29,521 bases of DNA. Source: a bacterium. Lineage in GTDB: Bacteria; SAR324; NAC60-12. Below the pieces are notes generated by a model that saw nothing but the letters and a program-made list of their open reading frames with translations, ran no database searches and was not told the DNA's origin. A program made the translations under genes and the position numbers. Of the stretch, positions 12,721 through 29,521 are shown piece by piece (position 1 is the stretch's first letter; each line of letters begins with the position of its first letter). The stretch covers positions 1 to 29,521 of the forward strand of contig CBDDTI010000106.1 in assembly GCA_965233585.1 (NCBI GenBank), given 5' to 3'.

Positions 12721-13006
12721 TTGTTTTCGTCTGCAATCGGCTTGCAACAGGCTCGATCGAGCCTGCAATCGGCTTGTTTTCGTCTGCAATCGGCTTGCAA
12801 CAGGCTCAATCGAGCCTGCAATCGGCTTGTTTTCGTCTGCAATCGGCTTGCAACAGGCTCAATCGAGCCTGCAATCGGCTTGTTTTCGTCTGCAATCGGC
12901 TTGCAACAGGCTCAATCGAGCCTGCAATCGGCTTGTTTTCATCTGCAATCGGCTTGCAACAGGCTCAATCGAGCCTGCAATCGGCTTGTTTTCGTCTGCA
13001 ATCGGC
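12721..13006. repeat. 53-bp tandem repeat, ~5.4 near-identical copies, each with an internal hairpin
   Basis: Unit TTGTTTTCGTCTGCAATCGGCTTGCAACAGGCTCAATCGAGCCTGCAATCGGC at 12721, 12774, 12827, 12880, 12933 and 12986 (partial). Confidence 0.95.
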
Positions 13007-13520: not shown

Positions 13521-13865
13521 ATGGTCAACAACAACAATCTCACGTATCAACATATAAAGAATCCCCACGTTTTGTTGCGAAATATCTCAATTCTTCTCAA
13601 CAGGATAAACAAAATCTTAAAGTTGTTGGATCAACGAGTATTTGTGTATCGTAAAAACGTTAAGGACCGCACGTGTTTCTTTTATATTCCAACATATGAT
13701 TCCGAAACACGCGCGCAAATCATTTTTGCCATTCAAAAAGAATTACGAGTGTACCATTATTATAAAAAAGTAACCATTAAGTTTTTGTCTAAAACGTTTT
13801 GTTTGAAAAACAACAACATTTTTAATTATGTGGAGCAACGACTCGCCTCCCGCCAATCGCCGTAA
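13521..13865 (+). CDS. Hypothetical basic protein, 114 aa (Polinton accessory)
   Basis: ATG-initiated ORF in AT-rich context with TATAAA at ~13499. Confidence 0.5.
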   Translation: MVNNNNLTYQHIKNPHVLLRNISILLNRINKILKLLDQRVFVYRKNVKDRTCFFYIPTYDSETRAQIIFAIQKELRVYHYYKKVTIKFLSKTFCLKNNNIFNYVEQRLASRQSP

Positions 13866-14082
13866 TTGTGTCCGAAGAAACAGAGATGGAGAAGATCCTT
13901 TTAAATATATTTATTTTGTAAAAGACACTATTTCCCCTTGGCTTTTAGTTTTTCTTTGGTCTTTTTTAATGCTGCTCGGTCTATACGCTTTATTTGAACA
14001 TGAATACAAATTATGGAGGAATATAAATGTTAACAACAAAACTGTAGATTTTTCTATCCCTCAAAATACAAATGTCTTGTAA
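13828..14082 (+). CDS. Small single-pass membrane protein, 84 aa
   Basis: Hydrophobic stretch ISPWLLVFLWSFLMLLGLYALF and an NKT sequon; overlaps the upstream ORF by 38 nt. Confidence 0.5.
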   Translation: MWSNDSPPANRRNCVRRNRDGEDPFKYIYFVKDTISPWLLVFLWSFLMLLGLYALFEHEYKLWRNINVNNKTVDFSIPQNTNVL

Positions 14083-14400
14083 GCGCGGTGTGTTTTACTT
14101 TCTCAGCGTGAGTTTTCTCGTTTCTTTGCGTAAATTTCGCTCAACCCTCCCTCTGCGAAGTGTTCTTCATAAAGAATCTTTCAAAGCATTTTTTTTTATT
14201 GTATGAAAAAGTTCTTTTTATTTAATTTCGACAAAAAACTTCTAACTTTATTTATAATAAATGTACATATGTTCGCGTGTTTGACCGCCCGCTTTTATTA
14301 TAAAAAATAAATAATTTCAAGTTCTTGATTTAAAAACTTCATTTCATTTTCAATTCTTAAACATTTCAAACTTTAAAAGTATATTTGCAATTCTGCCATA

Positions 14401-15465
14401 ATGAACTTCAACATCATCATCGTCTTCGTCATTTGTGCCTTTTATTTGGCACAAAAAATTTCGTGCGAGGAAGACATCACTTTATTGAAAAATCTCCTCG
14501 CCAAAATTGTCGCATCCACTAATTCTTCTTCTGATACGACCATCGTCCCAACAACCGGCTTTGCTTCAACCACCACAACTGCTTCTTCCACTTCAAGTAC
14601 CACGACCGTTCCTTCTACTAGCACTACCACCGTCCCGCCCACTACCGTTGCTACCACTTTGACGAGCTCTACTCTCTCAACTACGATTGTAACTTCACCC
14701 GCTACCACTTCGGCTGTGTTGGAAACAAGCACGGTTCTGGTACCTCCATTGCCACAACCACTTTTAATCCGCCAACGTTTTCCGCTTCGCCTAATGTATC
14801 AACAATACATAGTACTTTTTCCTTTGCGGGTTTTGACTCCACAACCTTTGACAGTAAGTATTGATTATTTTCTTTTAAGTTAACATTTTTTATACAAATG
14901 CCTTATTATTTTCAGATGTCTTCAAAATATTTGTTGGATCTGTGTTCGCCTTCATTTTTGTAACGTTTGCCATAATAATGTACAAATTAAGAAGACTGAG
15001 CCATCACCACCAAGAGCCGTCTAACGTCGAAGTATGATTATCGTATTTTATAAAATATTTTGTCTACTCTATTTTTTTTTTTTTAGCCTATTGAAATGAT
15101 TCAAATAGAGGCTGCTGCGGATCCATCAGCAAATGAAGAGGTTGTGGAAGAATCGAGTGTTGAAATTCTGCCGCTTGAGTCAACCGCATCGGCGTTGCCG
15201 TCCGATGCAACTACTTTTTTGTCGGTTCCCGAAAAAGTAGATAAAGCAACCAACACGGAGTATACGGTAAGAAATTTATTATTATTTTTAAATCGCTTAT
15301 TATATATAAATTATTTTTTAGGTTTATCATAGACGACCGTACTTTTCGAGCATGATTCCTCCGTTATTCAACACACCTCGCACGGAACCTGCGACGGATT
15401 CTTCTTCAGTAGCCGTTGACCCTTCTCTCCTTTCTGCCAGGCTAAATTTGTCTACTCCCGTCTAA
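14401..15465 (+). CDS. Mucin-like type I membrane glycoprotein, 4 exons (14401-14853, 14916-15031, 15087-15266, 15322-15465), one frameshift near 14733, ~297 aa
   Basis: Signal peptide and S/T-rich ectodomain. GT-AG introns of 62, 55 and 55 nt. Exon 2 gives TM helix VFKIFVGSVFAFIFVTFAIIMY followed by KLRR. Ends in STPV; AATAAA at ~15498. Confidence 0.75.
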
Positions 15466-15571
15466 TACATTATAATCTAGTTTTTATTTTTATTTGAATA
15501 AAATAAATGCGCATTTCATTTTATTTCTCAAAAATACATTTATGCATATGTACATCTTTGGTCGTTTTGTT

Positions 15572-16786
15572 CTATTGTTGGATATGAGGCAGTTTTTTCT
15601 TGATGCCAAAACACAATTCCATAAAGGCTTTTGTTATTTCCTCCAGCCCTCTTAGCGGTACCTGAATCTTCATAATCTTGGTCGAATATTGTTGGTTGTT
15701 TTCGTTATACTGAAAAAATGTCTTTTTAGATAAGATTTTTCATGCTATCTGACGTACTCACGTGTTCCTTTTTCACATAAATCACCGGCCAGGCTGATAG
15801 CCCTCCGGCCTTTTGAATATGCCTCAAGCCGGTTATTCCGACGGTCACTTGCGGATTAAGGTATACTACCTTGTACATCGGCTTAATTGGGAGGCTGATG
15901 CTTTTCTCATCCACTTTTTTTGTCTTGATCAGCTCAATAAATTTTTTGAGCGTGGCCGGATTTATGTACATATACTAAAATAAAAATTAAAATTATTTTA
16001 ATTCATCAAATTAAGTTAATATAGACTTACATTGTCTGGACCAAAAAAGTAGGCTTCTCTTGTTGAATGTTCTTTTTGCCATTCAGCAAAATCGATATCC
16101 CTTGTCTCGCATATTTTTTCGGTGGTCCAATTTCGAAAATATTGCTTTTGCTCATCTTCGTCCATTAAAATTTGATACGACATCAATGACGCGCCTTCAT
16201 AGACCGCATGATTGTTAATTTCAGTATCCACCAATATTCCTTTTTTATTTGACCTTTTTCTTTTCTTTCCTAAAATGTCTTGAGTCTGCTCATTAAGGTC
16301 TTCGTCATCATCATCATCATCATCATCATCATCGTCATTGTCATCATTTTCTAAACTTTCATCGCTTAACTCCTCCGCATCGGTTGAAACATCATCATCA
16401 TCAGATTGAACAGTCAAAATTTCTGACTCTGATTCTTCTTCCGTTTCTTCATTTACAGAGTCCGATTCTGATGACGAAATGTTGTGGTTCCTTTTTTGTT
16501 TTTTTCCTTTAATTATAAAATATTACCATTAATTGTAACGCGTGTAAAAAACGACTTAAAAATTAGAATTACCTGATTTCAATTTATGTTTTTTATTTGT
16601 ATTCTTCTTGGATTTTCCATTACCAATCTTCTTTTTATCAGTCTTTTTATTTTTCTTTTCCGCCTCTGACGTATTTTCAGCCTTTTTTTTCTTCTCATCA
16701 TCAACGGCTTTATAATTAATCTCTTCCGATTTACCATTTTTATTGGCTGTGTTAGGCTTTTTCTTTTTTGCGGGTGATTTCTTCAT
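15572..16786 (-). CDS. 346-aa protein, 4 exons (16786-16573, 16506-16031, 15974-15762, 15709-15572): Lys-rich N-terminus, poly-Asp/Glu tract, globular C-terminus (possibly PC4-like)
   Basis: GT-AG introns of 66, 56 and 52 nt join three listed ORFs plus a last exon into one frame of 1041 nt. Confidence 0.8.
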
Positions 16787-17455
16787 CTTATTGCTTTAAA
16801 TGCGGGTGATTTATTCTGACAATAAATCTGTACTGACGTTTGTCATCAAATGTAGGTTCTTTTTAAACCTTCTTGAGTTTAAGGGAGTGTCAGTATGACA
16901 ATGTTCTAAGGGGCTCTTGATTCCACATGCGCGGGCAAGTAGCTGATAAGTTTCATCAATTTTGATTGGTTACACAGCATAAATGAGCTATGGTGTTGAA
17001 GGTTGTAAATTTTAACGATGCTGAACGCGTTTGAGGTCAATTCTTGTTAATGTTTTTGGCTCATCCTAAATTATAACGCGTCAAGTCGTTAACAGACAAT
17101 GGTCTAAGGAAATTATGGATAATTTGTGTTTTTGAACGTGTTGAATTGTGAATTAAACAACGGTGCAAGAAAATTATGGATAATGGGTGCACTGTGTGCT
17201 GTGTGTGTGTGTGTGTGTGTGTGCGTGTATTTTCCATCAATTTTTTCTCATTCAACTAGTCCGTATTTGTAACAAATTATATTTGTCAAAACTCAATCAA
17301 AACGCCATTAATTTTTCCGAGTACTTAACGTTTCTCATGCTCAAGATTTGTAATTTGCTGTGGATATCTTTAATTTTTTTGTGCTTAATTTGTCATTAAT
17401 TTTTTCTCATGCAATTGGCTCGTAAATGTGCCAAACTATTTCCCACCAAAAATTG

Positions 17456-17491
17456 TATAAAAACGCGGTCATATTTCCAAATTCATTCATT
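17456..17491 (+). promoter_or_regulatory. TATA box plus TCATT initiator-like core promoter
   Basis: TATAAAAA at 17456 and TCATTCATT 27 nt downstream, upstream of ATG 17552. Confidence 0.55.
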
Positions 17492-17551
17492 ATAAGTTTG
17501 AACATTCGTTGAAAGAAGATCTTCTGCCATTCGCTGTCAAAGGTAATTCAA

Positions 17552-18379
17552 ATGTCTAATTCACCAAATGACTCAAACAACCCTCGCCAAGTTTTTTTTG
17601 GCCCTGCAGGGTTAAGAATAAGATTTCACCTAAGAAACGTTGATGATTTAACATCACCGCCATCTCCACCGGTTGTGCCAATTGGACGAGGTCGAAGAGA
17701 TTTGAGGTCAAATGATGGCCCAAGTTCTTCTCTCGCCGCTCGTGGTGTTGGTCGGGGCCAGAGAACATCTTCCTCGTTTAATCAACGGGGTCGAGTATCT
17801 GAACCGATAGTTGTAAACCCCGAAGGATTTGGAATTATGGTTCAGATCAATAACAATCCAGCCGATGATTTAACATCGACCAATAACTCCGCCGATGATT
17901 TAACATCGCCATCAAACAACGCTGTCGATGATTCAACATCGAACCCCATGTCTCAAAGAATTTTTGCTGAGCGCAACACCTCGAGTACTTCGGTCGCTGG
18001 TCGTGGCGTTGGTCGGGGACAAAATATTTCTCGCCCCTTCAATCAAACGACTTCAGCCTCGATTGGACGAGAGGTCAGACGCGGTGTTGGTAGGGCTGGA
18101 AGATATTCTTCTCCTTATCAACGTCCAACTCGATCAGCAGAAGAAGAAATAGAAGAGGAAAATTATTTCCCCGCACCCACAAATTTTGAAAGATCGAATG
18201 ACGGTCGTTTAGCCTCTTTCATTCTCGATTTAATTGATGTAGAAGGAGGCTCACCTTATGATTTGTTTAATCGTTATGCTGAGTACGTATTGCGTCAACG
18301 CATTCAAACGCTTGAGCGTGAACGCGAACGCTTACGTGCTCAATATCAAAGATTGTTGCGTCATTTTAGACAAGAATGA
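17552..18379 (+). CDS. 275-aa disordered RG-rich protein with C-terminal coiled coil
   Basis: Long ATG ORF with RGVGR x3, DDLTS/DDSTS x4 and a heptad-like tail LRQRIQTLERERERLRAQYQRL. Confidence 0.8.
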   Translation: MSNSPNDSNNPRQVFFGPAGLRIRFHLRNVDDLTSPPSPPVVPIGRGRRDLRSNDGPSSSLAARGVGRGQRTSSSFNQRGRVSEPIVVNPEGFGIMVQINNNPADDLTSTNNSADDLTSPSNNAVDDSTSNPMSQRIFAERNTSSTSVAGRGVGRGQNISRPFNQTTSASIGREVRRGVGRAGRYSSPYQRPTRSAEEEIEEENYFPAPTNFERSNDGRLASFILDLIDVEGGSPYDLFNRYAEYVLRQRIQTLERERERLRAQYQRLLRHFRQE

Positions 18380-18493
18380 TTTGTATTAAGTAATTTGTTT
18401 ATAAATGTCTGAGCTATATAGTTTTAATGTGTTTGTATATATTATTTCCAAATTTTATGCGTCAATAAATTTTGTTTCAGAATTTTAACAGAA

Positions 18494-19255
18494 ATGCCAA
18501 AATCCTACGTCTGCCGCGAATGCCAAAAATCGTTTGCTAGAAAATCTTCCCGAGACAAACATGAATCGTTTCGTCATCGTGAAACATCGACAAAATTCCG
18601 AAATCGGACTCCATTAAATCAATCGCTTCAGTGTCCGTTTTGTAAGAATGAATTAAGTTCCTTCAAATCAAGAAATGATTTGGTCTCTCACATCGATTCC
18701 TCTCATTTAGAAGACTTAAATTATTCTCTTTTTAAATCTGCTTTGAATGGTAAAATTAAAATTTTTCGGAAACATATATTTTCTACAGAAACGCTTCACG
18801 CCTTTGTTGTTAATAGAGCAAATAGACAAGAAATTGTTGATGTCATTCGTCATGAATTGAGTAAAACCTTTACAGTAAAAGTTGCTTTAATTTTATCAGC
18901 GGCGTATCAGATTCCTGATTTGAATTCAGCTACAAAAGACAAAGACACTGAGACGGAAGCTGCTGTTGATAATACTTCAACACAGCCTCAAACGGTTGTT
19001 AGCAACATTGATGATTCAACTGAAAAAAGTCTTGATCAGTCGTCACATCAATTAATGCCTAGCGATCGAGATGTCTTTGCTTTAAGAACCGGCTATATTC
19101 AATTCACGTCTTTTGATTCTTCTCGCTCGTTAAAAGGTAAAGTTCAAAAATTATTAAACAATTTAATAACTCGAGAAGAGGATTTGTTGATGAGAGGTTC
19201 CGGATGGAGATTCGAATCTCTGTCTTTTAGCGACATCCAAATCACTAATATTTGA
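18494..19255 (+). CDS. C2H2 zinc fingers plus putative terminal-protein domain (homolog of the pPolB N-terminal region)
   Basis: CRECQKSF..H..H and CPFC..H..H fingers; C-terminal GSGWRFESL motif typical of the N-terminal region of Polinton pPolB. Confidence 0.75.
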   Translation: MPKSYVCRECQKSFARKSSRDKHESFRHRETSTKFRNRTPLNQSLQCPFCKNELSSFKSRNDLVSHIDSSHLEDLNYSLFKSALNGKIKIFRKHIFSTETLHAFVVNRANRQEIVDVIRHELSKTFTVKVALILSAAYQIPDLNSATKDKDTETEAAVDNTSTQPQTVVSNIDDSTEKSLDQSSHQLMPSDRDVFALRTGYIQFTSFDSSRSLKGKVQKLLNNLITREEDLLMRGSGWRFESLSFSDIQITNI

Positions 19256-19305
19256 TTTTAAGGACTTATTTTGTTGTATATGAAAAATTCAAGTAAGCTT
19301 TGGAA

Positions 19306-22300
19306 ATGGATTTTATAGAAATTCCGCGAGATTTAAAAAGATCTAACTGCTTGGAATGGAATACTCGATATGATAAATTTAACTTTCTTTATCTGTACAT
19401 TAGACATCTTTTTCCAGAAACTGCTTCCATCACAGATTTTCGTCAAATGCCAATAAAATATCTTAAAAAATTCAACATAAAAGGTTTTACGTTTCCTCTT
19501 CAATTTTGTGACATAAAAAAATTTTTGTGTAGAAATCGTCATTTACCAATTTCAATTTCCGTACTTTATGAGAGTGAAGGTCACGTTTCAAAGTTAGGGT
19601 TTATTACTAACAAAAACAATGATATAAGAGAAAATACTCTCCATTTGTTAATGATAAAACACGATCCTAAAATCTCTTCCGATAAAACTTTAAGTAATTC
19701 CCGTCCCAAAAAATCGAGTTTTCCTTCCAAGTTTAAAAAAATCAAAGATTTAAATCAACAGCATCATTTCTTTAAAATTACAAAACTCCAAGGTTTTTTG
19801 AATAATCGGGCCGGACTGTTGTCGATTAATAAAGCGGGTCAACAGAAGTACATCCACTGTGAAAAATGTCTGCTGCGTTTCCGATCAAAATCCAAGAAAG
19901 AAAAGCATGAGCGGATTTGCTACGATAAGCAACGCACCATCTATCCCGGCAAAAATGCCGCTATAAGTTTTTCTAACCACAAACATAAATTTAAAGCACC
20001 TGTTGTGGGATTTTGTGATTTTGAAAGTGTACTTCAAAGAAACAAGGAACGATCTAAATGTCGACTTTGTTCTAAATTGGAATGCTTGTGTGCTTTTCCT
20101 ACAAGTGACGATATAAATGTGCATAGACCGGTAGGCTACAGCCTGATTTTTGTGGACTCCGAGAATGAAGTATTCTTTCAAGAAGAATATTTAGGAGAGG
20201 ATGCGGCCAAACGTTTTTTGGATCGGATACCTCTCTATGAAAAAGTTGTTGAAGAAAGAAAACAAAAATTCAGAGATGTTCTCAAAACTCAAGCCACCCA
20301 GGAGGAATGGCAAATGTTTCGAAAAGCAACCGTTTGTCATATATGCGGTCTCCGATTTGCTACCCATCCTAAAAAGTATAGAAAAGTTTTGGATCACGAT
20401 CATGTCACAGGAAAAATAATGGGTGCGGCTCATTCGCTGTGTAATTTGACAAGATCCGGACCCTATCACACGCCAATTTTTTTCCACAACGCTCAAGGGT
20501 AAAAAATTTTTTATTAACTTTATTTTATCAATCAATTTTTACAAATTAAACGTTTCAGATACGATTTGCATTTAATCATAGAAGAGTTAAACATTCGCCG
20601 ATTCAAGAAAATGCCGGAAGTCTTGGCTAGAAACAGTGAAAAATTTCGCACTCTTACATTGGGCAAATTCAAAATTCAAGATTCATTAGAGCACATATCT
20701 GCCAGCTTAGACGCTCTTGTCCAAGATTTGAATCAAACTTCAAACTTTTCTTTCCCTATTTTACAACAGATGGAAAGATTTCAAAAAATTCCTATCCGTC
20801 AAAAATCAAAAGCTTTTAAACTTTTAAAAAGAAAAGGCATTTTTTGTTACGAGCATTTTCAATCATTACAAGAAATGAAAAAAAGTCGAAACCTCCCAAC
20901 CAAAGACGCTTTTTATTCCGAATTGAATGAAGAACACATCTCGGAAACGGATTATTCTCATGCGCAAGAAGTCTTCAAACTGTTCAAGTGCAAGAATGTA
21001 GCGGATTACATGATGCTTTATTGTTCTTTGGATGTCATCCTGCTATGTGAGGCATTTCTTCAATACAGGAAAATGGTTATGGAACATTTTCAATTGGATC
21101 CAATCTATTACTTAGGTAAATTTCCTTTTCTGTTGCTTGACATATAAAGTTTGAATATAAAATTTATTTCGTATAATTTTAGGAATTCCTGGTTTAAGTT
21201 TTGATGTTATGCTTATGTTCTATCAAAACTCTGAACGAGCTACAACAACAAATGATAACCTCGCGGGTGAATCTTCCAAGCCTCTAGGATCTCTGGATAT
21301 CTATTCCGATCCCGAAATGGAGCAGTTTTTTACAAAGGGTATCAGAGGCGGACAAAGCTTTATCTCTCAGCGTTATGCAAAAGGAAACAGCAATCCGAGA
21401 AAAAGCGGCGATCATTTACTTTACATTGACGGTAATTTTATACTGCATCGTTTGATTAATTTATTTATTTAAAATCGGTGACTTTTTAGCAAACAACTTG
21501 TACGGGAGCATGGAAACTTTAAAATTGCCAGTTTCTGATTTCGAGTGGGTTGCAAAAAAAGATCTTGAAAAATGGACTGCCAAAGATATTATCAAGATTC
21601 CTTCTCAAGACGAGACCGGGTACGCATTCGAAGTTGATTTGCATTATCCTTCTCATCTTCACCCGGTAAATCTGATCTTTTTAACACGTTTTTGCATTTT
21701 GATAAACGGTAAAATATTTTCAGACACATGATCAATTTCCGCTGGCTCCGTATACAGACACGGTTTCTTACAAACATCTGTCTCCTTATAATCGCCGTTT
21801 ACTAAAACATCTTAACCCTCGAGATTATAAGAACAAAAGATACCGAAGCAAGAAACTGTTGAGCACTTTTTATGATCGAAAAAAGTACGTGGTGCATCTG
21901 GAAAACCTACAATACTACTTGAAAAAGGGCATGAAGCTGTTGAGGATAAGAAGAGCCGTGAAGTTCCGACAAAAAGCTTTTCTAAAAGAGTTTATCGAAA
22001 AGGTGACATTGCTACGATCGAACGCCCGTAATGATTTTGAACTTCGGCTTTTTAAGCTTTTTGCCAACTCTACTTTTGGAAAATTTATCGGTAAGTAAAT
22101 ACCCAGATTTAAGATCTTTTTTATATTTTTATATTTGCACAAGCGCGTGGTGGTACTGCCAATATTTCGTGCAAAATGTGTTGGCAGTACACACCACACG
22201 CTCATCCACATCTTCAATGTCGTCGTCGTCGGGAGGCGCGTGGACCTCGGCCTCCACGGTGATGACCTCCCCGTCGAAATCAGACATTCGGTTTGCCGCC

Positions 22301-23961
22301 GCTCGAATTTTGGCCAGACGAACGATCTCCGTTGCCCGAATTCTGGCGGCAATAGACCTGTCGTCGGCGGGGAGTCTGATGGGAATGGGGGCCTCGATGG
22401 GAACGTCGGTGGGGATCTCGATGGGGGGAACTCGATCGATGCGCCTCGGTGGGGAACTCGGTGGGGGCCTCGATGGGCACCTCGATGGGGACGGGGACCT
22501 CAATTGGCACCTCGGTGGGGACGTTGGTGGGAATCTCGGTGGTGGGGAACTCGATGAGAAACTCGGTGGGGGCCTCGATGAGCATCTCGATGGGGGACTC
22601 GGTGGGAGCTTCGATGAGCGCCTCGACGGGGACGGGGACCTCAGTGGACACTTCGGTGGGGAGGTCGACAAGAATGCCGGTGGGGACGTCGGGCTCAATA
22701 AAGTTTTCATTTTGAAAGCCTCGGACAGCGCGACCGCCGCCGCCACCGTTGGCGGCGAGCACAGCAACGCCAACGGAGAGTGCAACGGCAGCGGCGCTAG
22801 CGGTGGCGGCGGCGGCGGCAGCGGACGGCGGAGCATCAAAAATGTCGGCCACGGCCGACCGGATCCGCCGGATCAGGCCCGGTCTCCGGTTCTTCTTCTT
22901 CTCCTCCTCCTTCTTCTCCACCGCCAAAAGCGGCTCTCCATCCTCCTCCCTTAACCTCCTGTACCCTCTCCTCATCTCCATCATCATCATTTTTCCTTGC
23001 TCTTCTTCTTCCTCTTCTTCCTGGTCTAAAGTTTGTTTTGAAAATTGCCACATGGTTTTGGGAAGTTTTTAAAAAATGAATCTCCAAACTCCTACACACT
23101 TTATAATGAATTTTTATAAAAATGTTGTATTCTTTATAAAATATTAATTTTATTTTATATTTTTCAGAAAATGTTCGAAATTACATCGAAGTGGTCCTTT
23201 GTGGAGATGAAAAAAGTCTGAGGAAAGCCAGTCTTGGTCAACACATCAACAATTTTCAAATCATTAATGAGAATTTGGTGGCTGTCAACAAGAAGCCGGC
23301 AATGATAGAGCTTAAGAAGCCTTTAGCCGTCGGATTTTCCATTTTGGAGTTGTCCAAGTTGTTTATGTACAGATCATACTATGACACCATTCAAAAACAT
23401 TTCGGCAAAGACAATGTATCTTTGTGTTTTTCGGACACGGATTCTTTTCTTTTAAAAGTTAAATGCAACAATTTGGAAAGGGAAATGAAGAGATTGAAAC
23501 ACATGTTTGATTTTTCAAAGTACCCTAAACAACATCCACTTTTTGACGACAGTAAAGCCAATCAACTTTTTTATTTTAAAGATGAATTAAAAGGTAGAGC
23601 GGCTATTACTGATTTTATAGGCTTACGTCCAAAATGTTATTCTATGAAAATAGCCGATTTTTTGGACAAAAACAAAACTGATGAGAAAAAAGTATGCAAA
23701 GGTTTAAAAAAATCTAGTATAAAAAAGCAATTAACTTATGCAGATTACAAAAAGTGCTTAAAGCAAACTGTTGTAATTTACAAATCTTTTAAAAATTTAA
23801 GATCAAAGAATCACAAAATCCGAACGTGTTTTCAAAGAAAAATTGCGTTGTCGGCAATGGATTCCAAAAGATATGTTTTAAATTGCGGATGTCACACTTT
23901 ATCGCTAGGAAATTGTCTTATTGTTAACAACAAAATGTCTAAATGTCAAATTTGTAAATAA
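19306..23961 (+). CDS. polB: Protein-primed DNA polymerase B, 6 exons (19306-20498, 20559-21115, 21183-21431, 21490-21665, 21724-22090, 23168-23961), 1111 aa
   Basis: Splicing restores HNAQG|YD (ExoII), YLG|IPGLSFD, YID|ANNLYG (motif A), HP|THDQFPLAP and KLFANSTFGKFI|ENVR (motif B). ExoI DFES, ExoIII YCSLD, DTDS and RPKCYS are intact. EndoVII-like insert CHIC..DHDH..H..CN. Exon total 3336 nt, in frame. Confidence 0.93.
22129..23053 (-). CDS. Nested antisense gene in pPolB intron 5: acidic protein with a hydrophobic segment and P(T/I)E(V/A/F) repeats; frameshift near 22440
   Basis: ORF 23053-22280 and the C-terminal part of ORF 22839-22129 continue the same PTE/PIE repeat across a frameshift. 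Minus-strand TATAAAG (~23105-23099) and TCATT (~23079-23075) lie upstream. Confidence 0.7.
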
Positions 23962-24027
23962 AAAATAATTAAATCATTACTTTTATTTAAAAGAAAATTT
24001 TGTAATTTCTTTTTTAAAATTAATAAA

Positions 24028-24723
24028 ATGAACGGTTTTGATTTGAGGTTTAATATTCCGTCCAACATGTTGGTTGTCGGTCCAACATCAAGCGGAAAAA
24101 CAACGTGGCTAAAACATTTAGTGCTTCGTCGGCACGAATATTTTGCAACTCCGCCTGAAACAATGTTGTTGTTTTACAAGGAACCGCAAAAAGCATATCA
24201 GTACATGGAAGACGACATGAATGAGGGCAGAGGTTCTGACACACAATTTCCGTCTTTTCGTAAATTCAAAAATATTCCAAATTCAATTGAAGAGTTGAAA
24301 GATATTTTAGAATTATATCCGAGAAAAATGCCCAAATTGATTGTTTTTGACGATTATTTAGACGATGTTGGGCAAATATTAAAACATTTTTTTACGGTTT
24401 TGACCCATCATTACAATTGTTTCACCGTTTTTCTTTGTCAAAATTTATTTGACAAAAAAGGCGATTTACGGACATTAAGCATAAATACGCAATACATGAT
24501 CCTTTTTAACAATCCGCGGGACAGAAGCGCCGTTGCACATTTGGCAAAACAAATTTTTCCCGGTCGTGTTGGAATCTTAAATAAAGCATATAGAGAAGCA
24601 GTTAACGGTCGAAGTCACGGATATCTTCTTCTAGATTTCCATCAACAGCAAGACGATAAAGTCAGAATTCGAAGTAACATCTTTCCTTATGAAGGATTAA
24701 TGAAAGCCTACGTTACTGTTTAA
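24028..24723 (+). CDS. A32-like (FtsK-HerA superfamily) genome packaging ATPase
   Basis: Walker A GPTSSGKT, Walker B LIVFDD, HHYN..FLCQN and GYLLLD motifs; 231 aa. Confidence 0.92.
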   Translation: MNGFDLRFNIPSNMLVVGPTSSGKTTWLKHLVLRRHEYFATPPETMLLFYKEPQKAYQYMEDDMNEGRGSDTQFPSFRKFKNIPNSIEELKDILELYPRKMPKLIVFDDYLDDVGQILKHFFTVLTHHYNCFTVFLCQNLFDKKGDLRTLSINTQYMILFNNPRDRSAVAHLAKQIFPGRVGILNKAYREAVNGRSHGYLLLDFHQQQDDKVRIRSNIFPYEGLMKAYVTV

Positions 24724-24770
24724 AAAATTTCATATCTATTTAAGAAAAATTAAAAATAATTACTGTTAAA

Positions 24771-25145
24771 ATGTCAAAAAAATTAGAAAAAGCTAGTTCG
24801 CTTTTTAATGCAATAAAAAAATTAAAACATCAAGATTGTGCTAATTTTTTAAATTATTTGGACGATCGCGGCGTTGAATTGCTTTGTCGTATTTTACATT
24901 ACGTTTTGAACGGCGAATTGCCCTTACATGGCGAAGTGCGAACACGACTTCAGAAAAAAATAAGAGCTCATTTAGGGGAGTTCAGACGTCTTGCCACGCC
25001 GCCTCGTCGCTCTTCCGACATTTTGAAAAAAAGAACAATACTACAAAGGGGCGGAATTTTAGGAACTTTATCGGCAATTGCCAGCATTATCGTCCCTATT
25101 TTAGCTCAAATTATTGCAAAAAAGAGCTTGCAACGTCGTCGTTAA
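24771..25145 (+). CDS. Basic virion protein with an adenain-type GG cleavage site and C-terminal amphipathic helix (adintovirus 'cupiennin'-like)
   Basis: LQRGG|ILGTLSAIASIIVPILAQII; located directly after the ATPase. Confidence 0.75.
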   Translation: MSKKLEKASSLFNAIKKLKHQDCANFLNYLDDRGVELLCRILHYVLNGELPLHGEVRTRLQKKIRAHLGEFRRLATPPRRSSDILKKRTILQRGGILGTLSAIASIIVPILAQIIAKKSLQRRR

Positions 25146-25148
25146 AGG

Positions 25149-25994
25149 ATGAGTTCAGGTGTGAAAAGAAAAACAAATGATGAAATATACTCCATGTTTT
25201 TAGTCCCCAAAAGGCTATATCATTCTTTAATAAAAAATATAGAAGATAATGAAACAAAAAAAGAACTTATTTCTATGAATGAAAAACCAAATACGTCCAA
25301 TTACATCGAAAATGCCATTAATTTTAAAAATTTACAAGACAGGCAAAAAATGAATCAAAGCGGTGATAAATTGTACCGTTTTGGTTCTGATAATATATCA
25401 AATGTTATGCCGCCAGTACAAGTCGATAGCAGTACGGGTCGTACGTATCAATCTATTTCAAGATCAACAACCGCTCAAACTCCCCAACAAAAAGAAAATA
25501 CCGCTCAGTTTTTGCCCACTACTCCCATTATGGAAAGGGAACCCGATCCAGACTTGTTTTATACCGCTTCAAGACCAAAAAGCAAAGACGATACTTCAAC
25601 TCCTGACGTGCCAGAATGGTGAAATTTGCCTGTTATAAAGGCATTGACACAAAAAAATTCAGACGGCAAAATATTTTGTCCTTTCACCGCATGCGGGAAG
25701 CAGTATGTTGACGATGCGCAATTCGGCAAACACCTTGTAAGAGATCATATGAAAGAATTGTCTATATTTGACACAGAAAAAATTGGTAAAGATATAGCCT
25801 CGGTCTCTTCACAAGCATCAAAATCCCCTTCAGCTTCAATGTCATCCCTCAAAACAGGATCAGGAGGTGCGAAAAAGAAAACTTTTACTATTTCTCCCGT
25901 ACAAACTAGATCTAAATCAAAAAAACTTTCAACAACTGATGCAGATGCTGTTAAAAAAAAATTACTTTTTCCGGGAAAATACCCAAAATTATAA
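25149..25994 (+). pseudogene. Polinton protein with a C2H2 finger, interrupted by one in-frame TGA (25620-25622)
   Basis: ORFs 25149-25622 and 25626-25994 share a frame. N-terminal MFLVP motif; finger CPFTAC..H..H. Confidence 0.6.
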
Positions 25995-26132
25995 TGAAAG
26001 TAAAATATATATCATCGTTTATTTTCAAGTTTTTTTATAAAATGAGTTACAATTTCATCATTTTTTATTTTGGGTTTTTTTACAAATATTTTAACAAATT
26101 GTTGAGGAGACATTAAATTGTTGCCCACGGAT

Positions 26133-26468
26133 TGTTACGGTCATCTATCTATCTATATATTATCATACATCTTTGTACATAGCTATCCACCGCGCTCGTC
26201 ATCATACAGAAATATATTCACTCGCTTGTTAGCTCACATGGAGTCATGAACAGGATTTTCTCGAACTTGATTTCTGGACTTGATTTCGAGGAAGGATGCC
26301 TGGTCAAGTCCTGGCAAGTCCATCAGCTTCAAGCGCAGTCCCTGGGACCATTCTAAGTGAATCCAGGTACACCGGGAAGGCAACAGTCGCCTTCCAATTC
26401 GTCAAGGCCAGAAGAGGGGGAGTTTCCCGTGAGAAACGGCGCCCCGGCCTTTCCACCCTCGATGGAGC
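26133..26468 (+). mobile_element. 5' LTR (26133-26238), PBS and leader of a truncated Gypsy element
   Basis: TGTTACGGTC...CTCACA is followed directly by TGGAGTCATGAACAGGAT (PBS-like, resembling a tRNA-Leu complement). Confidence 0.75.
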
Positions 26469-29255
26469 TCAGACAATTGCTGTCAGCTCTAGCTCAAGTG
26501 TGGAATAATTTTTCTCCGCTGGTGACAGAGAACGGGAGCCACACTGAATAACCTTTGTCTTTTCCCCTGAGTGTTGCATGAGGACGAATCCAAGGCCGTG
26601 CAACCGGGAGGCATCAGTGATCAGCCTTGTGTTCCATGTTGGGTCAAAGTGGTTGAGGGCCAGGGCTTCGAGAAGATTTGTTTTTAGTTGATCGAAAGCT
26701 GTCTGATGATCTTCTAACCAAAGGTAGGCAGTGTCCTTTCGAAGCAGAGTTTGGAGGATGCTGGTGTGTTTTGCCAGCCCAGGGTGGTATGCGGATAGCT
26801 GGTTGACCATGCCAAGAAAGCTACGGAGCTCAGATACTGATCTCGGGGCCGGGAAGTCCCTTATTCCTTGCAAATACTCAGGGTTAGGCTGCACACCGTT
26901 TTGACTGACAATTTGTCCTGCGAACTCAACTGATTCTCCAATCTCCAGTTTTTTCCTGGACAGGGTGAAGTTGTGCGATCGGCACCTTGCCAATAGTTGA
27001 TCTATACGGTGTCGAAGAGTGTCTATGTCCGGGGCTTGTATGAGGATGTCATCGACCAACTTTCTGATTCCGGGAAGGCCTTCGATGACCTTGTCTGATC
27101 GGCGACAGAACTCATCACTAGAACAAGATAGGCCCATGGGGGCTCTCAGAAAGCGGAAGCGTCCTGAGGGGAGGAGGAAAGTTGTTAGCTTTGAGCTCTC
27201 TTCATCGAGAGGCACCTGATGATATCCCTGGGTTGCATCTAACTTGGCAAAAACTCTAGAATCCGGATCTATGCCTGACAAGATCTCTTGGGTTGATGGG
27301 AAGGTGTGGATGGGCCTCTGGACGTACTTGTTTAGTTTCGTGTAGTCGATCACGAGACGAATATCCCCATTCTTTTTAGCAACGAAGAAGCCTGGAGCAC
27401 ACCACTCTGTTGGTTCCTCCTGTGGTGTGATTACCTTGCCATCAATGAGCTTCTTAATGATCTTCTCTGCCTTTTCTCTCCAGTGGAGTGGAATCTGGTG
27501 AGCAGTACTGATGCGAAAGGGTTTCTTTTCACCTGGGGTGAGATGGACTTTCATAGCTACACACCCTGTGTTCAAGGATGTCTGTGGTAAGTCGTCCGTG
27601 AGAACGGTTGGGTTGTCCTTGATCAGAGACTCTTTCATGCTTTTATATTTATTTTCTGAGAGAAGATAGACAGGCAGAGGGAATTGCTTTGATATAACCC
27701 CGAGTTTGCTAAGATCATCTCGTCCCACGATGATTTCATTCTTGATGGCATCTGTGATAACGGCCTTCGTTTCTGATACATGGTTGGATGATTTGAGGCG
27801 AATGCGAACCGTTCCTGCGGTGGGCACAGGATCCCCGCTGACATTGTAGTATTTGACAAATGAAGGAGATGTCGGCTTTATATTCTGTCTGGTGGCAAGA
27901 TCGGCCACGATCAGAGTGGCAGCGCTTCCTGTGTCTGGAAACGTGGAAAAGTTGAAAGATCCGTTTGCATGAGAGATGTTAAGCGTTAAACGATTTACCC
28001 ATGAATTGTCCGGATCTTCAGGAGTTTCTGTCACTGACATGACAGGCTTGCTCGAGCTGGGTTTTCCCTTCAGCGCAGATGAGCAGACCTTTGCAAGGTG
28101 GCCTTTGATGCCACAATGGTTGCAAGGCGTTCTGTTTTGCCATATAGCACAGTCCTGACGGGCGTGGTTACCACCGCAACCTTTGCATCGTTTCGGTTTC
28201 GATGGTTGCTTCTCTTTGGCGTTGGTTTGTTGTTTTCCTTCGGTTGGTTGGCTTGGTTGGCGGCCTCCCCCCTTATTGAGTGCCGCGACTGGAGCGGCCT
28301 TGCGGAGAGCAGCTTCTGCTTTTTGTTGGCGATCGTATTGGTCGATTGCCTCTTTGACGGCCGTGGCGTCCTTGCGTTTGAGATCAAAGATCTTTTCACG
28401 CAAGTGGGTGTCCTCGCAAGCGTCGATGAAGCGAAAGACTGTGAGGTCTTCTTTGGAAACGGCCTCGAGGTCGGCCATGTCGCCCAGTCTGGCGAGGCGA
28501 AGATAGAAGTCGCTGGCTGTCTCTCCCTGATCTCGGCGTACCTGGAAGAAATCCACACGTCTGTTGAAGACTGGGTACAGAGACTTGAACTCGGCCTCCA
28601 GCATATCGATACAGCCGGCAGGTCCGAAGATAGATGTTCCTGGGCATAGCTGACGCTCCAAGATCTCCTGCAGTGACTGGTCCAACGCCTGTAGGAAATA
28701 TCCCTGTTGGGTGGCTACCGGTTGCTGCTGTAAGTTACTGGCGTCGTAAAATCTCCTGAATGCTGCGACCCATAGCCTCATTTCACCAGGTGTGTTGGCC
28801 TTCATGAGCTGGGTCGGGAACAGAAGCTTACATGTGCTGATTTTTGGAGGATTGGGCTGGACGGATGATTGTCCGGATGTGGATGCGGCCCTTGCAGACT
28901 CTTGTGAGTGTTTTGACACATACTCGTTTAATTTTGTCAAGGCCTTGTCCTGTCTCTCCTCATGCAGTTTAAGAGATGTCTCGGCTGCCTCGTTTGCTGA
29001 TTCGTTGCCGGCCTCGGTCTCCAGATCGCTCCAGCGGTCGTGAAGCTCGACACAGAAGTCGAATGCGTCGGTGAGACGTTTCCGAGCGTCGGAGCAGGAT
29101 GCTGGTGTGTCGAAGACGAATTTCCTTTCAACCAGCTTATCGATGGCAGTGCACGCACGGGTGACGGCGCTCTTGGCCGATGGTATGCGTGCCCAGATGG
29201 CAGCCGAATCGTTCCAATTAACTTGATCCCTCCTGTCAGCCTTGGTTGTTGGAAG
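26469..29255 (-). CDS. Mag-like Ty3/Gypsy gag-pol in a single frame, truncated in RNase H, no integrase
   Basis: Zinc knuckles CKGCGGNHARQDC and CNHCGIKGHLAKVC, protease DTGS, RT (KLDATQGYHQ, PMGL, LVDD) and RNase H TDAS..ELE. The frame is open 105 codons upstream of 28940. Confidence 0.92.
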   Translation of the reverse strand, partial: LPTTKADRRDQVNWNDSAAIWARIPSAKSAVTRACTAIDKLVERKFVFDTPASCSDARKRLTDAFDFCVELHDRWSDLETEAGNESANEAAETSLKLHEERQDKALTKLNEYVSKHSQESARAASTSGQSSVQPNPPKISTCKLLFPTQLMKANTPGEMRLWVAAFRRFYDASNLQQQPVATQQGYFLQALDQSLQEILERQLCPGTSIFGPAGCIDMLEAEFKSLYPVFNRRVDFFQVRRDQGETASDFYLRLARLGDMADLEAVSKEDLTVFRFIDACEDTHLREKIFDLKRKDATAVKEAIDQYDRQQKAEAALRKAAPVAALNKGGGRQPSQPTEGKQQTNAKEKQPSKPKRCKGCGGNHARQDCAIWQNRTPCNHCGIKGHLAKVCSSALKGKPSSSKPVMSVTETPEDPDNSWVNRLTLNISHANGSFNFSTFPDTGSAATLIVADLATRQNIKPTSPSFVKYYNVSGDPVPTAGTVRIRLKSSNHVSETKAVITDAIKNEIIVGRDDLSKLGVISKQFPLPVYLLSENKYKSMKESLIKDNPTVLTDDLPQTSLNTGCVAMKVHLTPGEKKPFRISTAHQIPLHWREKAEKIIKKLIDGKVITPQEEPTEWCAPGFFVAKKNGDIRLVIDYTKLNKYVQRPIHTFPSTQEILSGIDPDSRVFAKLDATQGYHQVPLDEESSKLTTFLLPSGRFRFLRAPMGLSCSSDEFCRRSDKVIEGLPGIRKLVDDILIQAPDIDTLRHRIDQLLARCRSHNFTLSRKKLEIGESVEFAGQIVSQNGVQPNPEYLQGIRDFPAPRSVSELRSFLGMVNQLSAYHPGLAKHTSILQTLLRKDTAYLWLEDHQTAFDQLKTNLLEALALNHFDPTWNTRLITDASRLHGLGFVLMQHSGEKTKVIQCGSRSLSPAEKNYSTLELELTAIV

Positions 29256-29397
29256 TCAGATGTTTGTTTGAATGGCCGGGCGCCGTTCGTAACGGGAAAC
29301 TCCCCTCTTCAGGCCGGAAGTAAGTGTTAAGTGGATAAAGGCAGATGGCAATGGTTGCCGGCGTCAAATTGGGACTTCTAAAGGACAGGTTCGTAAA

Positions 29398-29514
29398 GCT
29401 GTAGTAGACGCCATGTCAAGTGCTATGCAACTGATATCTATATTTATCTATGAGTCATGAATATATACAATGATATATGATGGATGATGATAGATGGATA
29501 GATAGACCGTAACA
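29398..29514 (-). mobile_element. 5' LTR (29514-29414, 101 bp) and PBS of the minus-strand Gypsy element
   Basis: On the minus strand, TGTTACGGTC...TTGACA is followed directly by TGGCGTCTACTACAGC. Confidence 0.8.
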
Positions 29515-29521
29515 ATTTTTT

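What the first reader, a model, noticed from the sequence alone, without database searches (positions are those of the whole stretch)
22091..23167. Antisense gene nested in the polymerase intron, directly after motif B
Seen: intron 5 is ~18x longer than the others. It is almost filled by a visibly GC-richer minus-strand gene (23053-22129) with its own TATA/TCATT elements. The gene stops 38 nt from the donor, and its promoter lies ~60 nt from the acceptor. The product has a charged N-terminus, a hydrophobic Ala/Val segment, 12-bp-coded P(T/I)EX repeats and a Cys/aromatic tail. Inference: a cargo gene landed in a small intron, using it as a safe harbour inside an essential gene. Opposing transcription might also regulate polB.
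Basis: partly seen in the sequence, partly recalled or inferred. Interest (0 to 1): 0.85.

Follow-up and report, generated by a model that had tools for sequence, protein, structure and literature searches.

The report
Antisense gene inside Polinton polymerase intron
A virus-like transposon (Polinton) carries a complete, fast-evolving gene of unknown function on the opposite strand inside one intron of its own DNA polymerase gene, while sister elements have a tiny empty intron at exactly that spot.

Summary
Window 22091-23167 is a GT..AG intron of a Polinton protein-primed DNA polymerase. It is 1,077 nt long; four other polB introns are 58-67 nt. It sits directly after motif B and is almost filled by a GC-rich minus-strand ORF with its own TATA-type promoter.

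The same assembly holds 11 full family-A copies and 13 family-B copies with the gene in this intron. Fourteen family-C copies have an empty 55-74-nt intron at the same codon phase. Six family-D copies have no intron there.

The gene is coding:
- dN/dS is lowest in the proposed frame (0.17 C-terminal, 0.42 N-terminal).
- 36 of 47 indels are multiples of three.
- Family B keeps a homologue, plus a second nested gene.

It is also the element's diversity hotspot: 18.5% informative sites against 3.8% in the flanks, and a tree that conflicts with the backbone.

It is an orphan. Only this lineage turned up among 1.84 billion representative proteins, with no Pfam, PDB or fold assignment.

The window's copy is frameshifted, and its element is cut by an LTR retrotransposon. 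Expression, function and any effect on polB are untested. Whether the gene was gained or lost is favoured as gain but not proven.

The parts
21724..22090 (+). polB exon upstream of the intron. Its last codons (22048-22089) encode LFKLFANSTFGKFI, which is polymerase motif B (KxxxNSxYG type; the motif name is recalled).
   Evidence: The exon is colinear with the 1,295-aa polB P0030. Among 11 copies dN/dS is 0.02.
22091..23167 (+). Spliceosomal intron of polB (GTAAGT...TTTTTCAG, phase 1, splitting a Glu codon G|AA). It is 1,077 nt long.
   Evidence: The donor and acceptor are kept in 11 of 11 family-A and 13 of 13 family-B copies. Family C has a 55-74-nt intron at the same site, and family D has none.
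23100..23125 (-). Promoter-like element of the nested gene: TATAAAAATTCATTATAAA. A conserved GGAGATTCATTTT leader follows at about 23070-23090.
   Evidence: The TATAAAAATTCATT core is kept in 10 of 12 family-A copies. The leader is 82% identical to family B over 99 nt. A similar TATAAAAA..AATTCATTCATTATAAG lies upstream of the element ORF at 17513. The pattern TATAAAAA-N(0-30)-TTCATT occurs twice in the element, against a mean of 0.10 in 200 shuffles.
22442..23053 (-). Nested gene, 5' part in the first frame. It holds an upstream ATG at 23053, the conserved ATG run from 22990, a basic/acidic N-terminus, the helix motif PGLIRRIRSAVADIF (22838-22882), the hydrophobic segment ATASAAAVALSVGVAVLAA (22751-22807), the invariant QNENFIE (22694-22714), and then the acidic Pro-rich repeats.
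   Evidence: N-terminal block dN/dS is 0.42 in this frame, against 0.97-1.07 in four other frames and 0.49 in the wobble-matched sense frame.
22385..22633 (-). Tandem 12/24/36-nt repeats encoding P-(T/I)-E-x units. Copy number varies among element copies.
   Evidence: Intact proteins are 306-380 aa long. Of 47 distinct gap runs in the ORF, 36 are multiples of three.
22430..22441 (-). Frame break of the window's copy. A small length difference from the other copies, not a multiple of three, makes this copy a pseudogene.
   Evidence: No indel is listed here in contigs of runs X1-X3 (not independent).
22129..22419 (-). Nested gene, 3' part in the second frame. It encodes the conserved C-terminal domain ..RLPADDRSIAARIRATEIVRLAKIRAAANRMSDFDGEVITVEAEVHAPP..VVCTANTFCTKYWQYHHALVQI and the stop codon TAA at 22131-22129.
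   Evidence: P0138. dN/dS is 0.17 in this frame. A search of 1.84 billion representative proteins found only 4 hits, all of this family. hhalign against the family-B tail gives probability 90%, E 1.5e-6.
23168..23958 (+). polB exon downstream of the intron (ENVRNY...). It contains the DTDS motif of motif C (motif name recalled).
   Evidence: dN/dS is 0.06.

Best explanation
**What it is.** Window 22091-23167 is a spliceosomal intron of the protein-primed DNA polymerase gene of a roughly 22.8-kb Polinton/Maverick-type element. The element is integrated in a eukaryotic genome whose contigs were binned into a bacterial assembly. The intron contains a complete accessory gene on the opposite strand, with its own TATA-type promoter, ORF and stop codon.

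**Shown.**
- The gene is conserved in two sister element families.
- It is under purifying selection as a protein.
- polB around it remains strongly constrained with intact splice sites.
- Sister elements have a small empty intron at the same site.
- The gene is the element's diversity hotspot, varying by repeat-number change and by mosaic exchange between copies.
- It has no detectable relatives outside this lineage.

**Inferred layout of the protein.** A basic/acidic N-terminus comes first, then a conserved helix. In family A only, an invariant Ala/Val hydrophobic segment follows that could span a membrane. Next comes a variable acidic Pro-rich spacer, and last a small C-terminal Cys/His hairpin that may bind zinc.

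**Inferred working.** Splicing removes the gene from the polB message, so the element gains a gene without interrupting its polymerase. Because the gene lies inside an essential gene, it cannot easily be lost by deletion or separated by recombination. The fast, mosaic evolution on an otherwise near-identical backbone is the pattern expected of a protein engaged with a changing partner, such as host defence, a competing element or a receptor. I take that as the most likely class of function.

**The window's copy is dead.** It carries a frameshift, and an LTR retrotransposon cuts the element at 26132.
For: **Anatomy.**

**Copies.** The insert recurs at 76-89% identity at 10 other full-length places plus one copy cut by a contig end, and always between the same two polB exons.

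**Coding signal.**
- Pooled Nei-Gojobori dN/dS over 12 copies is lowest in the proposed frame: C-terminal block 0.17 (pS 0.207, pN 0.041) and N-terminal block 0.42 (pS 0.167, pN 0.075).
- Four other frames give 0.97-3.3.
- The wobble-matched sense frame gives 0.24 and 0.49, but it contains a stop inside the invariant QNENFIE block.
- 36 of 47 distinct gap runs in the ORF are multiples of three, against 1 of 12 in the leader.
- The single ORF is intact in 5 of 11 family-A copies.

**Family B.**
- An intron of 1.6-2.3 kb at the same site holds a homologous small gene, intact in 11 of 13 copies, with dN/dS 0.32 and 0.17.
- It also holds a second 396-aa repeat-protein gene, intact in 9 of 13 copies, with dN/dS 0.28-0.36. 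Its sense-frame alternative contains stops.

**Homology between families A and B.** BLASTP gives E 5e-5. hhalign gives probability 90%, E 1.5e-6 over the C-terminal 30 columns. The leader is 82% identical at nucleotide level.

**polB constraint.** dN/dS is 0.02-0.09.

**Empty-intron sisters and tree.**

**Hotspot.**
- Mean pairwise identity is 0.86-0.91 in the insert against 0.96-0.99 in the flanks.
- Informative sites are 153 of 828 in the insert, against 141 of 3,676 and 75 of 1,959 in the flanks.
- Copies with backbones 0.6-0.8% apart differ by 8-13% in the insert, and the change is sharp at about 22100 and 23200.
- C328a groups with C284 in both flanks (support 0.96-0.996) but with the C437/C349/C112 group in the insert (support 1.0).
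- Family B shows the same dip over its small gene.

**Orphan status.**

**Protein features.**
- The hydrophobic segment scores 1.85-1.99 in 5 of 5 A-type proteins.
- The N-terminal part has net charge +13 and the repeats -31.
- The family-B model has a helix at 52-76 and a C-terminal beta-hairpin at 132-143 with block pLDDT 77.
Against: - There is no expression evidence of any kind: no RNA run holds the stretch.
- About half of the family-A copies, including the window's, are broken. Selection may therefore act only while elements are active.
- Strand assignment in family A rests on stops in the alternative frame, the promoter and stop layout, and homology to family B. dN/dS alone does not decide it, since the wobble-matched sense frame scores nearly as low.
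- The structure models are poor (mean pLDDT 35.9 and 54.5), so the membrane and zinc readings are weak.
- Family-B proteins lack the hydrophobic segment (maximum 0.96-1.39), so a membrane anchor cannot be the core of the family's function.
- Synonymous diversity is also about twice that of the core genes (0.17-0.21 against 0.06-0.12). Part of the hotspot could therefore be mutational or due to imported alleles rather than selection.
- Four-gamete incompatibility is high in the flanks too (0.23-0.33 against 0.36), so recombination is not special to the gene.
- The tree alone does not decide between gain and loss.
Confidence: 0.7

Rival explanations
1. The product that matters is the antisense RNA. 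Head-on transcription through the intron, probably running into polB exon 5, lowers or times polB expression, and the protein is secondary.
For: - The stop codon lies only 38 nt from the polB donor, and no canonical AATAAA lies in between. The transcript's 3' end would therefore probably overlap the motif-B codons (inference).
- The leader and promoter are the best-conserved non-coding part shared between families A and B.
- A perfect 10-bp inverted repeat sits in the most conserved codons, at 22153-22162 and 22181-22190.
Against: Selection at protein level is clear: dN/dS is 0.17-0.42, indels preserve the frame, and terminal motifs are invariant across diverged lineages. Family B has about 140 nt of 3' space and two genes, which a pure antisense device would not need. 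The two readings can both be true.
Confidence: 0.12
2. The direction of change is the reverse. The ancestor of families A, B and C already had the gene-bearing intron, perhaps created by the insertion itself, and family C lost the gene by deletion down to a minimal intron.
For: On the polB tree, A+B (with the gene) and C (empty intron) are sister clades, and the outgroup D has no intron at the site. One loss is therefore as parsimonious as one gain.
Against: - Family-C introns at the site (55-57, 68 and 73-74 nt) look like the other small polB introns (58-67 nt).
- The gene's GC3 (0.64-0.73) is foreign to the element (0.31-0.33).
- No terminal repeats mark the insert as a self-inserting unit.
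Confidence: 0.2
3. It is not a gene. A GC-rich minisatellite or captured host fragment expanded in the intron, and the open frames are by-products of its composition.
For: - Several frames are open in the GC-rich stretch, including a 245-aa sense ORF.
- 5 of 11 family-A copies are frameshifted.
- Repeat hits to PT-rich proteins are low-complexity only.
Against: - dN/dS is frame-specific.
- 36 of 47 indels are multiples of three.
- The non-repeat N- and C-terminal blocks are conserved in diverged orthologues from other assemblies, P0005 and P0008, at 68-77% identity over the C-terminal 96 aa.
- The orthologue in family B has different repeats.
- No copy lies outside the intron.
Confidence: 0.03
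4. The coding strand is the polB sense strand, making this an alternative or retained exon of polB.
For: The wobble-matched sense frame has nearly as low a dN/dS (0.24 and 0.49) and long open stretches.
Against: - That frame has a stop inside the invariant QNENFIE block.
- In the five intact copies it spans only 142-235 aa of the conserved region, against 306-380 aa on the antisense strand.
- In the second family-B gene the sense alternative has several stops.
- The TATA element, ATG run and conserved stop all lie on the minus strand.
Confidence: 0.02

Closest known systems
Nested (intronic, opposite-strand) genes of cellular genomes, such as the genes inside the NF1 intron in mammals or the many nested pairs in Drosophila (recalled, not from a call)
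   Same: A whole transcription unit with its own promoter lies inside an intron of a host gene on the other strand. The host gene stays intact because the intron is spliced out.
   Different: Here the host gene is the replication polymerase of a mobile virus-like element, so host and nested gene move and multiply together. The nested gene is also the element's hypervariable locus. Five literature searches found no description of this layout in Polintons (listings only, apart from PMC11957031).
Cargo or accessory genes of Polintons/Mavericks (recalled: nematode Mavericks carrying cargo; a preprint listed mentions Polinton cargo, seen only in the listing)
   Same: A lineage-specific, non-core gene rides in a Polinton and differs between related elements.
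   Different: Known cargo sits between core genes. This one sits inside an intron of a core gene, and it is an orphan with no family assignment.
Adenovirus genome layout, where the polymerase and terminal-protein genes lie on the strand opposite to, and within the leader introns of, the major late transcription unit (recalled)
   Same: In a related virus group, genes on one strand lie inside introns of a transcription unit on the other strand, and the polymerase gene is involved.
   Different: The roles are reversed: here the polymerase gene is the host and the small gene is the guest. There is no sequence relation, and no data here show transcription.
Introners and introns in Maverick-Polinton-like proviruses of dinoflagellates (PMC11957031; passages read)
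   Same: Spliceosomal introns and secondary insertions occur inside genes of integrated Polinton-like elements that still look functional.
   Different: Introners are short non-coding transposons that create introns. This insert is a protein-coding gene without terminal repeats, sitting in what appears to be a pre-existing intron.
PT-repeat proteins (Pfam PF04886)
   Same: Pro/Thr/Glu-rich short tandem repeats. 12 of the 18 non-family hits carry this Pfam domain.
   Different: The query proteins do not reach the family threshold: the best is P0005 with E 0.074 and 13.1 bits against a cut-off of 26.2. The resemblance is compositional, and the conserved terminal domains have no match.

Membership tests
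Polinton/Maverick element | Protein-primed family-B DNA polymerase | tested here: met
   The exons are colinear with a 1,295-aa polB. One search returned 107 homologues, including proteins with precomputed PF03175 and PF02945. The window's own exon 19297-20502 hits Endonuclease_7 (E 1.1e-5). Single exons did not reach PF03175 on their own.
Polinton/Maverick element | Retroviral-type (rve) integrase | tested here: met
   The integrase is not in the window, because the element is cut at 26132. In the full-length sister copy C77, ORF L012:5733-6818 hits rve (1.3e-8) and Chromo (7.6e-5).
Polinton/Maverick element | Terminal inverted repeats | tested here: inconclusive
   No inverted repeat was found inside window 12000-26600, as expected for a truncated copy. 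In C77 and C30 the left-end 590 nt (window 12512-13101) recurs inverted at 87% identity about 22.8 kb away.
Polinton/Maverick element | FtsK/A32-type packaging ATPase, capsid proteins, protease | tested here: inconclusive
   ORF 23962-24723 gives only sub-threshold ATPase hits: Pox_A32 at E 0.003 and FtsK at 0.0052, both below their cut-offs. No Pfam hit for capsid or protease turned up among 14 ORFs.
Nested intronic gene | Promoter, ORF and stop codon all lie inside one intron of the host gene, whose splice sites are intact | tested here: met
   The 3' end of the transcript is not known.
Nested intronic gene | Independent transcription of the nested gene, and splicing of the host intron | not testable with these tools
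   No RNA run holds the stretch. Only short DNA-type contigs could be laid.
Single-pass membrane protein | A hydrophobic stretch of about 19 residues with Kyte-Doolittle mean above 1.6, with positive charge on one side | tested here: inconclusive
   The feature is met in 5 of 5 A-type proteins (1.85-1.99; the N-terminal part has net charge +13). It is not met in 4 of 4 B-type proteins (0.96-1.39). No dedicated predictor was available.
Zinc knuckle or ribbon | Four conserved Cys/His ligands around a beta-hairpin | tested here: inconclusive
   Family B has an invariant C-x8-C-x2-C-x3-HH and a modelled hairpin at 132-143 (low overall confidence). Family A keeps only C-x5-C-x6-HH. No Pfam zinc-finger hit was found. 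Metal binding cannot be tested here.
Pfam PT repeat (PF04886) | Score at or above the gathering threshold | tested here: not met
   The best score is 13.1 bits against a cut-off of 26.2.
Introner or other self-inserting element | Terminal repeats or target-site duplication at the insert ends, and copies elsewhere in the genome | tested here: not met
   No terminal direct or inverted repeats were found. All tblastn hits in the assembly lie in the polB intron. The assembly is only a partial sample of the host genome.

The most novel reading that the evidence does not exclude
The nested gene is a specificity determinant under diversifying selection. It could, for example, let an element tell self from rival elements, or counter a variable host defence. 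Its head-on position inside the polymerase intron would tie its expression inversely to polB transcription. The intron would then work as a built-in switch between a quiescent state (guest gene on) and a replicating state (polB on). The element's own TBP- and TFIIB-like proteins would read the TATA promoters.
Probability: 0.12. Interest if true: 0.8.

Novelty: new variant of a known kind. Interest (0 to 1): 0.55.

Why it matters
Polintons are thought to be ancestors or close kin of several groups of eukaryotic DNA viruses. How they gain and keep extra genes within a tight genome is poorly known.

This case shows one route with natural 'before' and 'after' states in the same sample: a gene placed inside an intron of the essential polymerase gene. 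There it cannot be deleted without risk to polB, and it always travels with the element.

The guest gene is also the one place where otherwise near-identical elements differ strongly. That points to the part of the element that meets a changing partner, and it gives a concrete orphan protein to test.

Tried and rejected
- **RNA evidence.** No RNA holder was listed for window 21700-23960. Laying runs X1, X2, X3 and X5 gave only short contigs. No joint across the intron was listed, and nothing could be said about strand or transcript ends.
- **Protein families.** Pfam found nothing for the nested proteins at E up to 1, apart from chance-level rows.
- **Language-model atlas.** No usable hit for P0008 or P0002.
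- **PDB by sequence.** Only chance rows at E around 1.
- **Structure prediction.** P0008 with 5 sequences gave mean pLDDT 35.9, and P0002 with 9 sequences gave 54.5. Both were too poor for fold search, so none was run.
- **Related loci.** Nothing was confirmed in genome contigs, viral contigs or metagenome contigs.
- **Genomic context of orthologues.** Only the read-through tail of P0007 shows the same nesting.
- **Known RNAs.** No Rfam family reached its gathering score in 21900-23400, and no tRNA was found.
- **CpG decay as the cause of the hotspot.** Rejected as the main cause. CpG observed/expected is 1.06 in the insert and 1.14-1.24 in the element. CpG transitions are 53 of 166 transitions in the insert against 38 of 153 in polB.
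- **Private hypermutation.** Rejected as the main cause, since 153 of 230 variable sites are shared between copies.
- **First tree.** A tree from exon 6 alone, with midpoint rooting, placed family C next to family B. The 1,142-column polB alignment with family D as outgroup overturned this.
- **Earlier findings of the scan.** Searches by sequence and by words gave nothing.
- **Complex prediction.** Not used, because no binding claim is made.

Full report
**Setting.** The window is contig C106 of a 12-Mb, 747-contig assembly. Earlier notes of this scan call that assembly an uncultured SAR324 bacterium (AI notes, not checked here). The window itself is eukaryotic in style.
- It has GT..AG introns of about 60 nt.
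- It carries an LTR retrotransposon with RT and RNase H domains on the minus strand at 26469-29255.
- Its left flank has CpG observed/expected of 0.34, against 1.24 in the element.

Window 12506-26132 matches sister copies of one element end to end. In C77 the element runs about 22.8 kb between inverted ends of about 590 nt. Its right part encodes an rve integrase with a chromodomain, a TBP-like protein and a TFIIB-type zinc ribbon. The window's copy stops matching at 26132, where the retrotransposon begins. The polymerase has 107 database homologues. The few named ones come from a calcareous sponge, a mussel and a dinoflagellate gene set. I did not determine the host.

**The observation.** The polB exons are colinear with an intron-free 1,295-aa polymerase. 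Four introns measure 60, 67, 58 and 58 nt. The fifth, 22091-23167, measures 1,077 nt. It splits a Glu codon directly after ..KLFANSTFGKFI (motif B; name recalled). GC jumps from about 0.35 to 0.63 inside it. On the minus strand there is, in order:
- TATAAAAATTCATT at 23118-23105;
- an ATG at 23053 and a run of ATGs from 22990;
- an ORF that changes frame near 22430-22441;
- a stop at 22131-22129, 38 nt from the donor.

Repeats with a 12-nt period fill 22385-22633.

**Copies and sister elements.** tblastn with the two flanking exons sorts the assembly's polymerases into four groups.

| Family | Exon identity to the window | Copies | State at this site |
|---|---|---|---|
| A | 98-99% | 11 complete, plus one cut by a contig end | intron of 1,077-1,351 nt |
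| B | about 90% | 13 | intron of 1,583-2,322 nt |
| C | 63-72% | 14 | intron of 55-57, 68 or 73-74 nt, same site and phase |
| D | 35-42% | 6 of 6 examined | no intron |

A maximum-likelihood tree on 1,142 aligned polB columns, rooted with family D, gives A+B as a clade (SH-aLRT/UFBoot 99.5/100). Family C is its sister (99.6/100). The tree allows either one gain on the A+B stem or one loss on the C stem. I favour gain at about 3:1, for two reasons. The empty intron is indistinguishable in size from the other small introns. The guest gene's GC3 (0.64-0.73) is foreign to the element (0.31-0.33).

**Is it a gene?** Open frames mean little at 63% GC: the sense strand also has a 245-aa ORF. The comparative tests are what count.
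- Pooled pairwise dN/dS over the 12 family-A copies is lowest in the proposed frame. The C-terminal block gives 0.17 and the N-terminal block 0.42.
- Four other frames give about 1 or more.
- The wobble-matched sense frame gives 0.24 and 0.49, as expected from shared third positions. That frame has a stop inside the invariant QNENFIE block.
- Of 47 distinct gap runs in the ORF, 36 are multiples of three. In the leader the figure is 1 of 12.
- The ORF is whole in 5 of 11 copies: C284, C77, C670, C328b and C30, at 306-380 aa. It is open but doubly shifted in C437. It is frameshifted in C106, C349, C592, C112 and C328a (the pattern missed C77, whose N-terminal motif differs).

The family-B intron holds two minus-strand genes.
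- One is a 149-171-aa homologue next to the donor, intact in 11 of 13 copies, with dN/dS 0.32 and 0.17.
- The other is a 396-aa Gly/Ala/Trp/Ser-repeat protein next to the acceptor, intact in 9 of 13 copies, with dN/dS 0.28-0.36. Its sense alternative is full of stops.

Three things tie the small genes of families A and B together:
- position;
- a leader 82% identical over 99 nt;
- the tail T-[FY]-C-x2-[YC]-x2-Y-H-H-[AT]-L-V (BLASTP E 5e-5; hhalign probability 90%, E 1.5e-6).

polB itself is under strong constraint in the same copies (dN/dS 0.02-0.09). Its donor and acceptor are kept in all 24 copies. The long intron must therefore still be spliced.

**A diversity hotspot.**
- Mean pairwise identity among family-A copies is 0.96-0.99 along 6.8 kb, except in the nested gene, where it is 0.86-0.91 with about 25-30% gaps.
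- Variable columns are 230 of 828 in the gene, against 183 of 2,783 and 103 of 1,959 in the flanks.
- Informative sites are 18.5% in the gene against 3.8% in each flank.
- The change is abrupt at about 22100 and 23200.
- C284 and C592 differ by 0.7-0.8% in the flanks and 8.3% in the gene. C284 and C328a differ by 0.6-1.6% and 12.8%. C437 and C328b differ by 0.7-0.8% and 11.1%.
- The trees disagree. C328a sits with C284 on both flanks, but with the C437/C349/C112 group in the gene.
- Two thirds of the variable sites are shared between copies. The pattern is therefore mosaic exchange of old variants plus repeat gain and loss, not private hypermutation.
- CpG decay does not explain it.
- Synonymous diversity is about doubled (0.17-0.21 against 0.06-0.12), and non-synonymous diversity is about 4- to 40-fold higher (0.041-0.075 against 0.002-0.011).
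- Family B shows the same dip over its small gene: 0.91-0.93 against 0.98-0.99.

Recombination signals are also common in the flanks. What is special is the amount of retained diversity, not recombination as such.

**What the protein looks like.** A-type proteins have five parts.
- A basic/acidic N-terminus with net charge +13.
- A conserved helix motif, GLIRRIRSAVADIF.
- An invariant Ala/Val segment with Kyte-Doolittle mean 1.85-1.99.
- The invariant NENFI block, followed by a variable acidic Pro-rich spacer with net charge -31.
- A conserved 90-aa C-terminal domain ending VVCTANTFCTKYWQYHH(A/T)LVQI.

B-type proteins keep the N-terminus, the helix, a different spacer (DVIP repeats and acidic runs) and an invariant FDEAKCVVGAxRTYCRNCxRYHHALVPQI tail. 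They lack the hydrophobic segment and the 60-aa helical part. The family-B model gives a helix at 52-76 and a beta-hairpin at the CxxC, but its confidence is low. The family-A model is unusable.

No family, fold or relative was found:
- Pfam;
- PDB by sequence;
- the language-model atlas;
- a full HMMER pass over 1.84 billion representatives, which gave 4 hits, all of this family;
- three contig collections.

The word-index searches found 7 A-type and 17 B-type proteins. All came from this assembly or from unnamed ENA assemblies. The read-through tail of one divergent member, P0007, is the antisense translation of the polB exon end, so the nesting holds there too.

**How it most likely works.**
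- *Shown:* a selected protein gene lies wholly inside a polB intron on the other strand, and polB remains functional.
- *Inferred:* splicing makes the insertion invisible to polB. Sitting inside an essential gene shields the guest from deletion and keeps it linked to the element. The promoter resembles that of at least one other element gene, and the element encodes its own TBP/TFIIB-like factors, so the guest is probably read as part of the element's own programme.
- *Inferred:* the mosaic hypervariability on a constrained backbone is what one sees in viral proteins that face a changing partner. I therefore place it as a host- or rival-interaction factor, at perhaps 50% within the overall reading. 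The other possibilities are a structural or DNA-binding small protein, or a regulator.
- *Untested:* whether head-on transcription also tunes polB.

**Novelty.** Nested antisense genes and Polinton cargo are each known. Introns and introners in Polinton-like proviruses are in print (PMC11957031, passages read). Five literature searches found no description of a gene nested in a Polinton polymerase intron, nor of this protein family (listings only otherwise). I rate it a new variant of a known kind.

**Verdict.** The window's own copy is a dead example of a live design.

Noticed in passing
L012:3889-4503 (+) and L012:4527-5318 (+), i.e. G000 C77 about 17888-19318, inside the full-length family-A element: The element encodes a TBP-like protein (PF00352, E 6.6e-19, one repeat matched) followed by a protein with a TFIIB zinc ribbon (PF08271, E 9.4e-7, just under the cut-off). 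A Polinton with its own TATA-reading factors would fit the TATA-type promoters seen before its genes. In one search none of the ten papers listed mentions Polintons alongside TBP or TFIIB.
   Followed up: partly
L009:1229-2419 (+), i.e. the family-B polB intron next to the acceptor: Family B carries a second nested antisense gene: a 396-aa protein of GAWSS/TKT and ERPVAPAWPSRTPYKSVPQKS repeats (P0003). It is intact in 9 of 13 copies with dN/dS 0.28-0.36 and has no Pfam hit. One intron thus hosts two guest genes in tandem.
   Followed up: partly
window 26133-29521: An LTR-type retrotransposon (RVT_1 and RNase H domains; a 928-aa open frame on the minus strand; GC 0.51) begins exactly where the window stops matching sister Polinton copies. 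The window's element is therefore truncated or interrupted about 13.6 kb into a roughly 22.8-kb element.
   Followed up: partly
window 1-12500 compared with 12506-26132: CpG observed/expected is 0.34 in the left flank and 1.24 in the Polinton. The surrounding genome looks CpG-depleted, as in methylated animal genomes, but the element does not. This suggests recent arrival or escape from methylation-driven decay.
   Followed up: no
whole assembly G000 (747 contigs, 12 Mb): An assembly held as a prokaryote genome, called a SAR324 bacterium in earlier notes, contains dozens of contigs with eukaryotic Polintons of at least four families and retrotransposons with spliceosomal introns. High-copy host repeats were evidently binned with the bacterium.
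   Followed up: partly
window 22153-22162 and 22181-22190: A perfect 10-bp inverted repeat with an 18-nt loop lies inside the most conserved codons of the nested gene (VCTANTFCTKYWQY). In the 11 copies the few substitutions there fall in the loop, not the stem. It may be chance (roughly 0.05 expected) or an RNA or DNA hairpin.
   Followed up: no
window 23053-22991 and the same place in sister copies: A conserved upstream ATG (MWQFSKQ.. in family A, MRENSKQ.. or MWENSKR.. in family B) precedes the main ATG run. It is in frame with the main ORF in some copies. In others it is out of frame or stopped after two codons. It therefore behaves like an upstream ORF or an optional N-terminal extension across a length-variable purine tract.
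   Followed up: no
window 14299-14883: Another element ORF (160 aa from the ATG near 14400) starts with a signal-peptide-like hydrophobic N-terminus. It is preceded by TATAAAAA..TTCATT about 57 nt upstream, the same promoter style as the nested gene.
   Followed up: no
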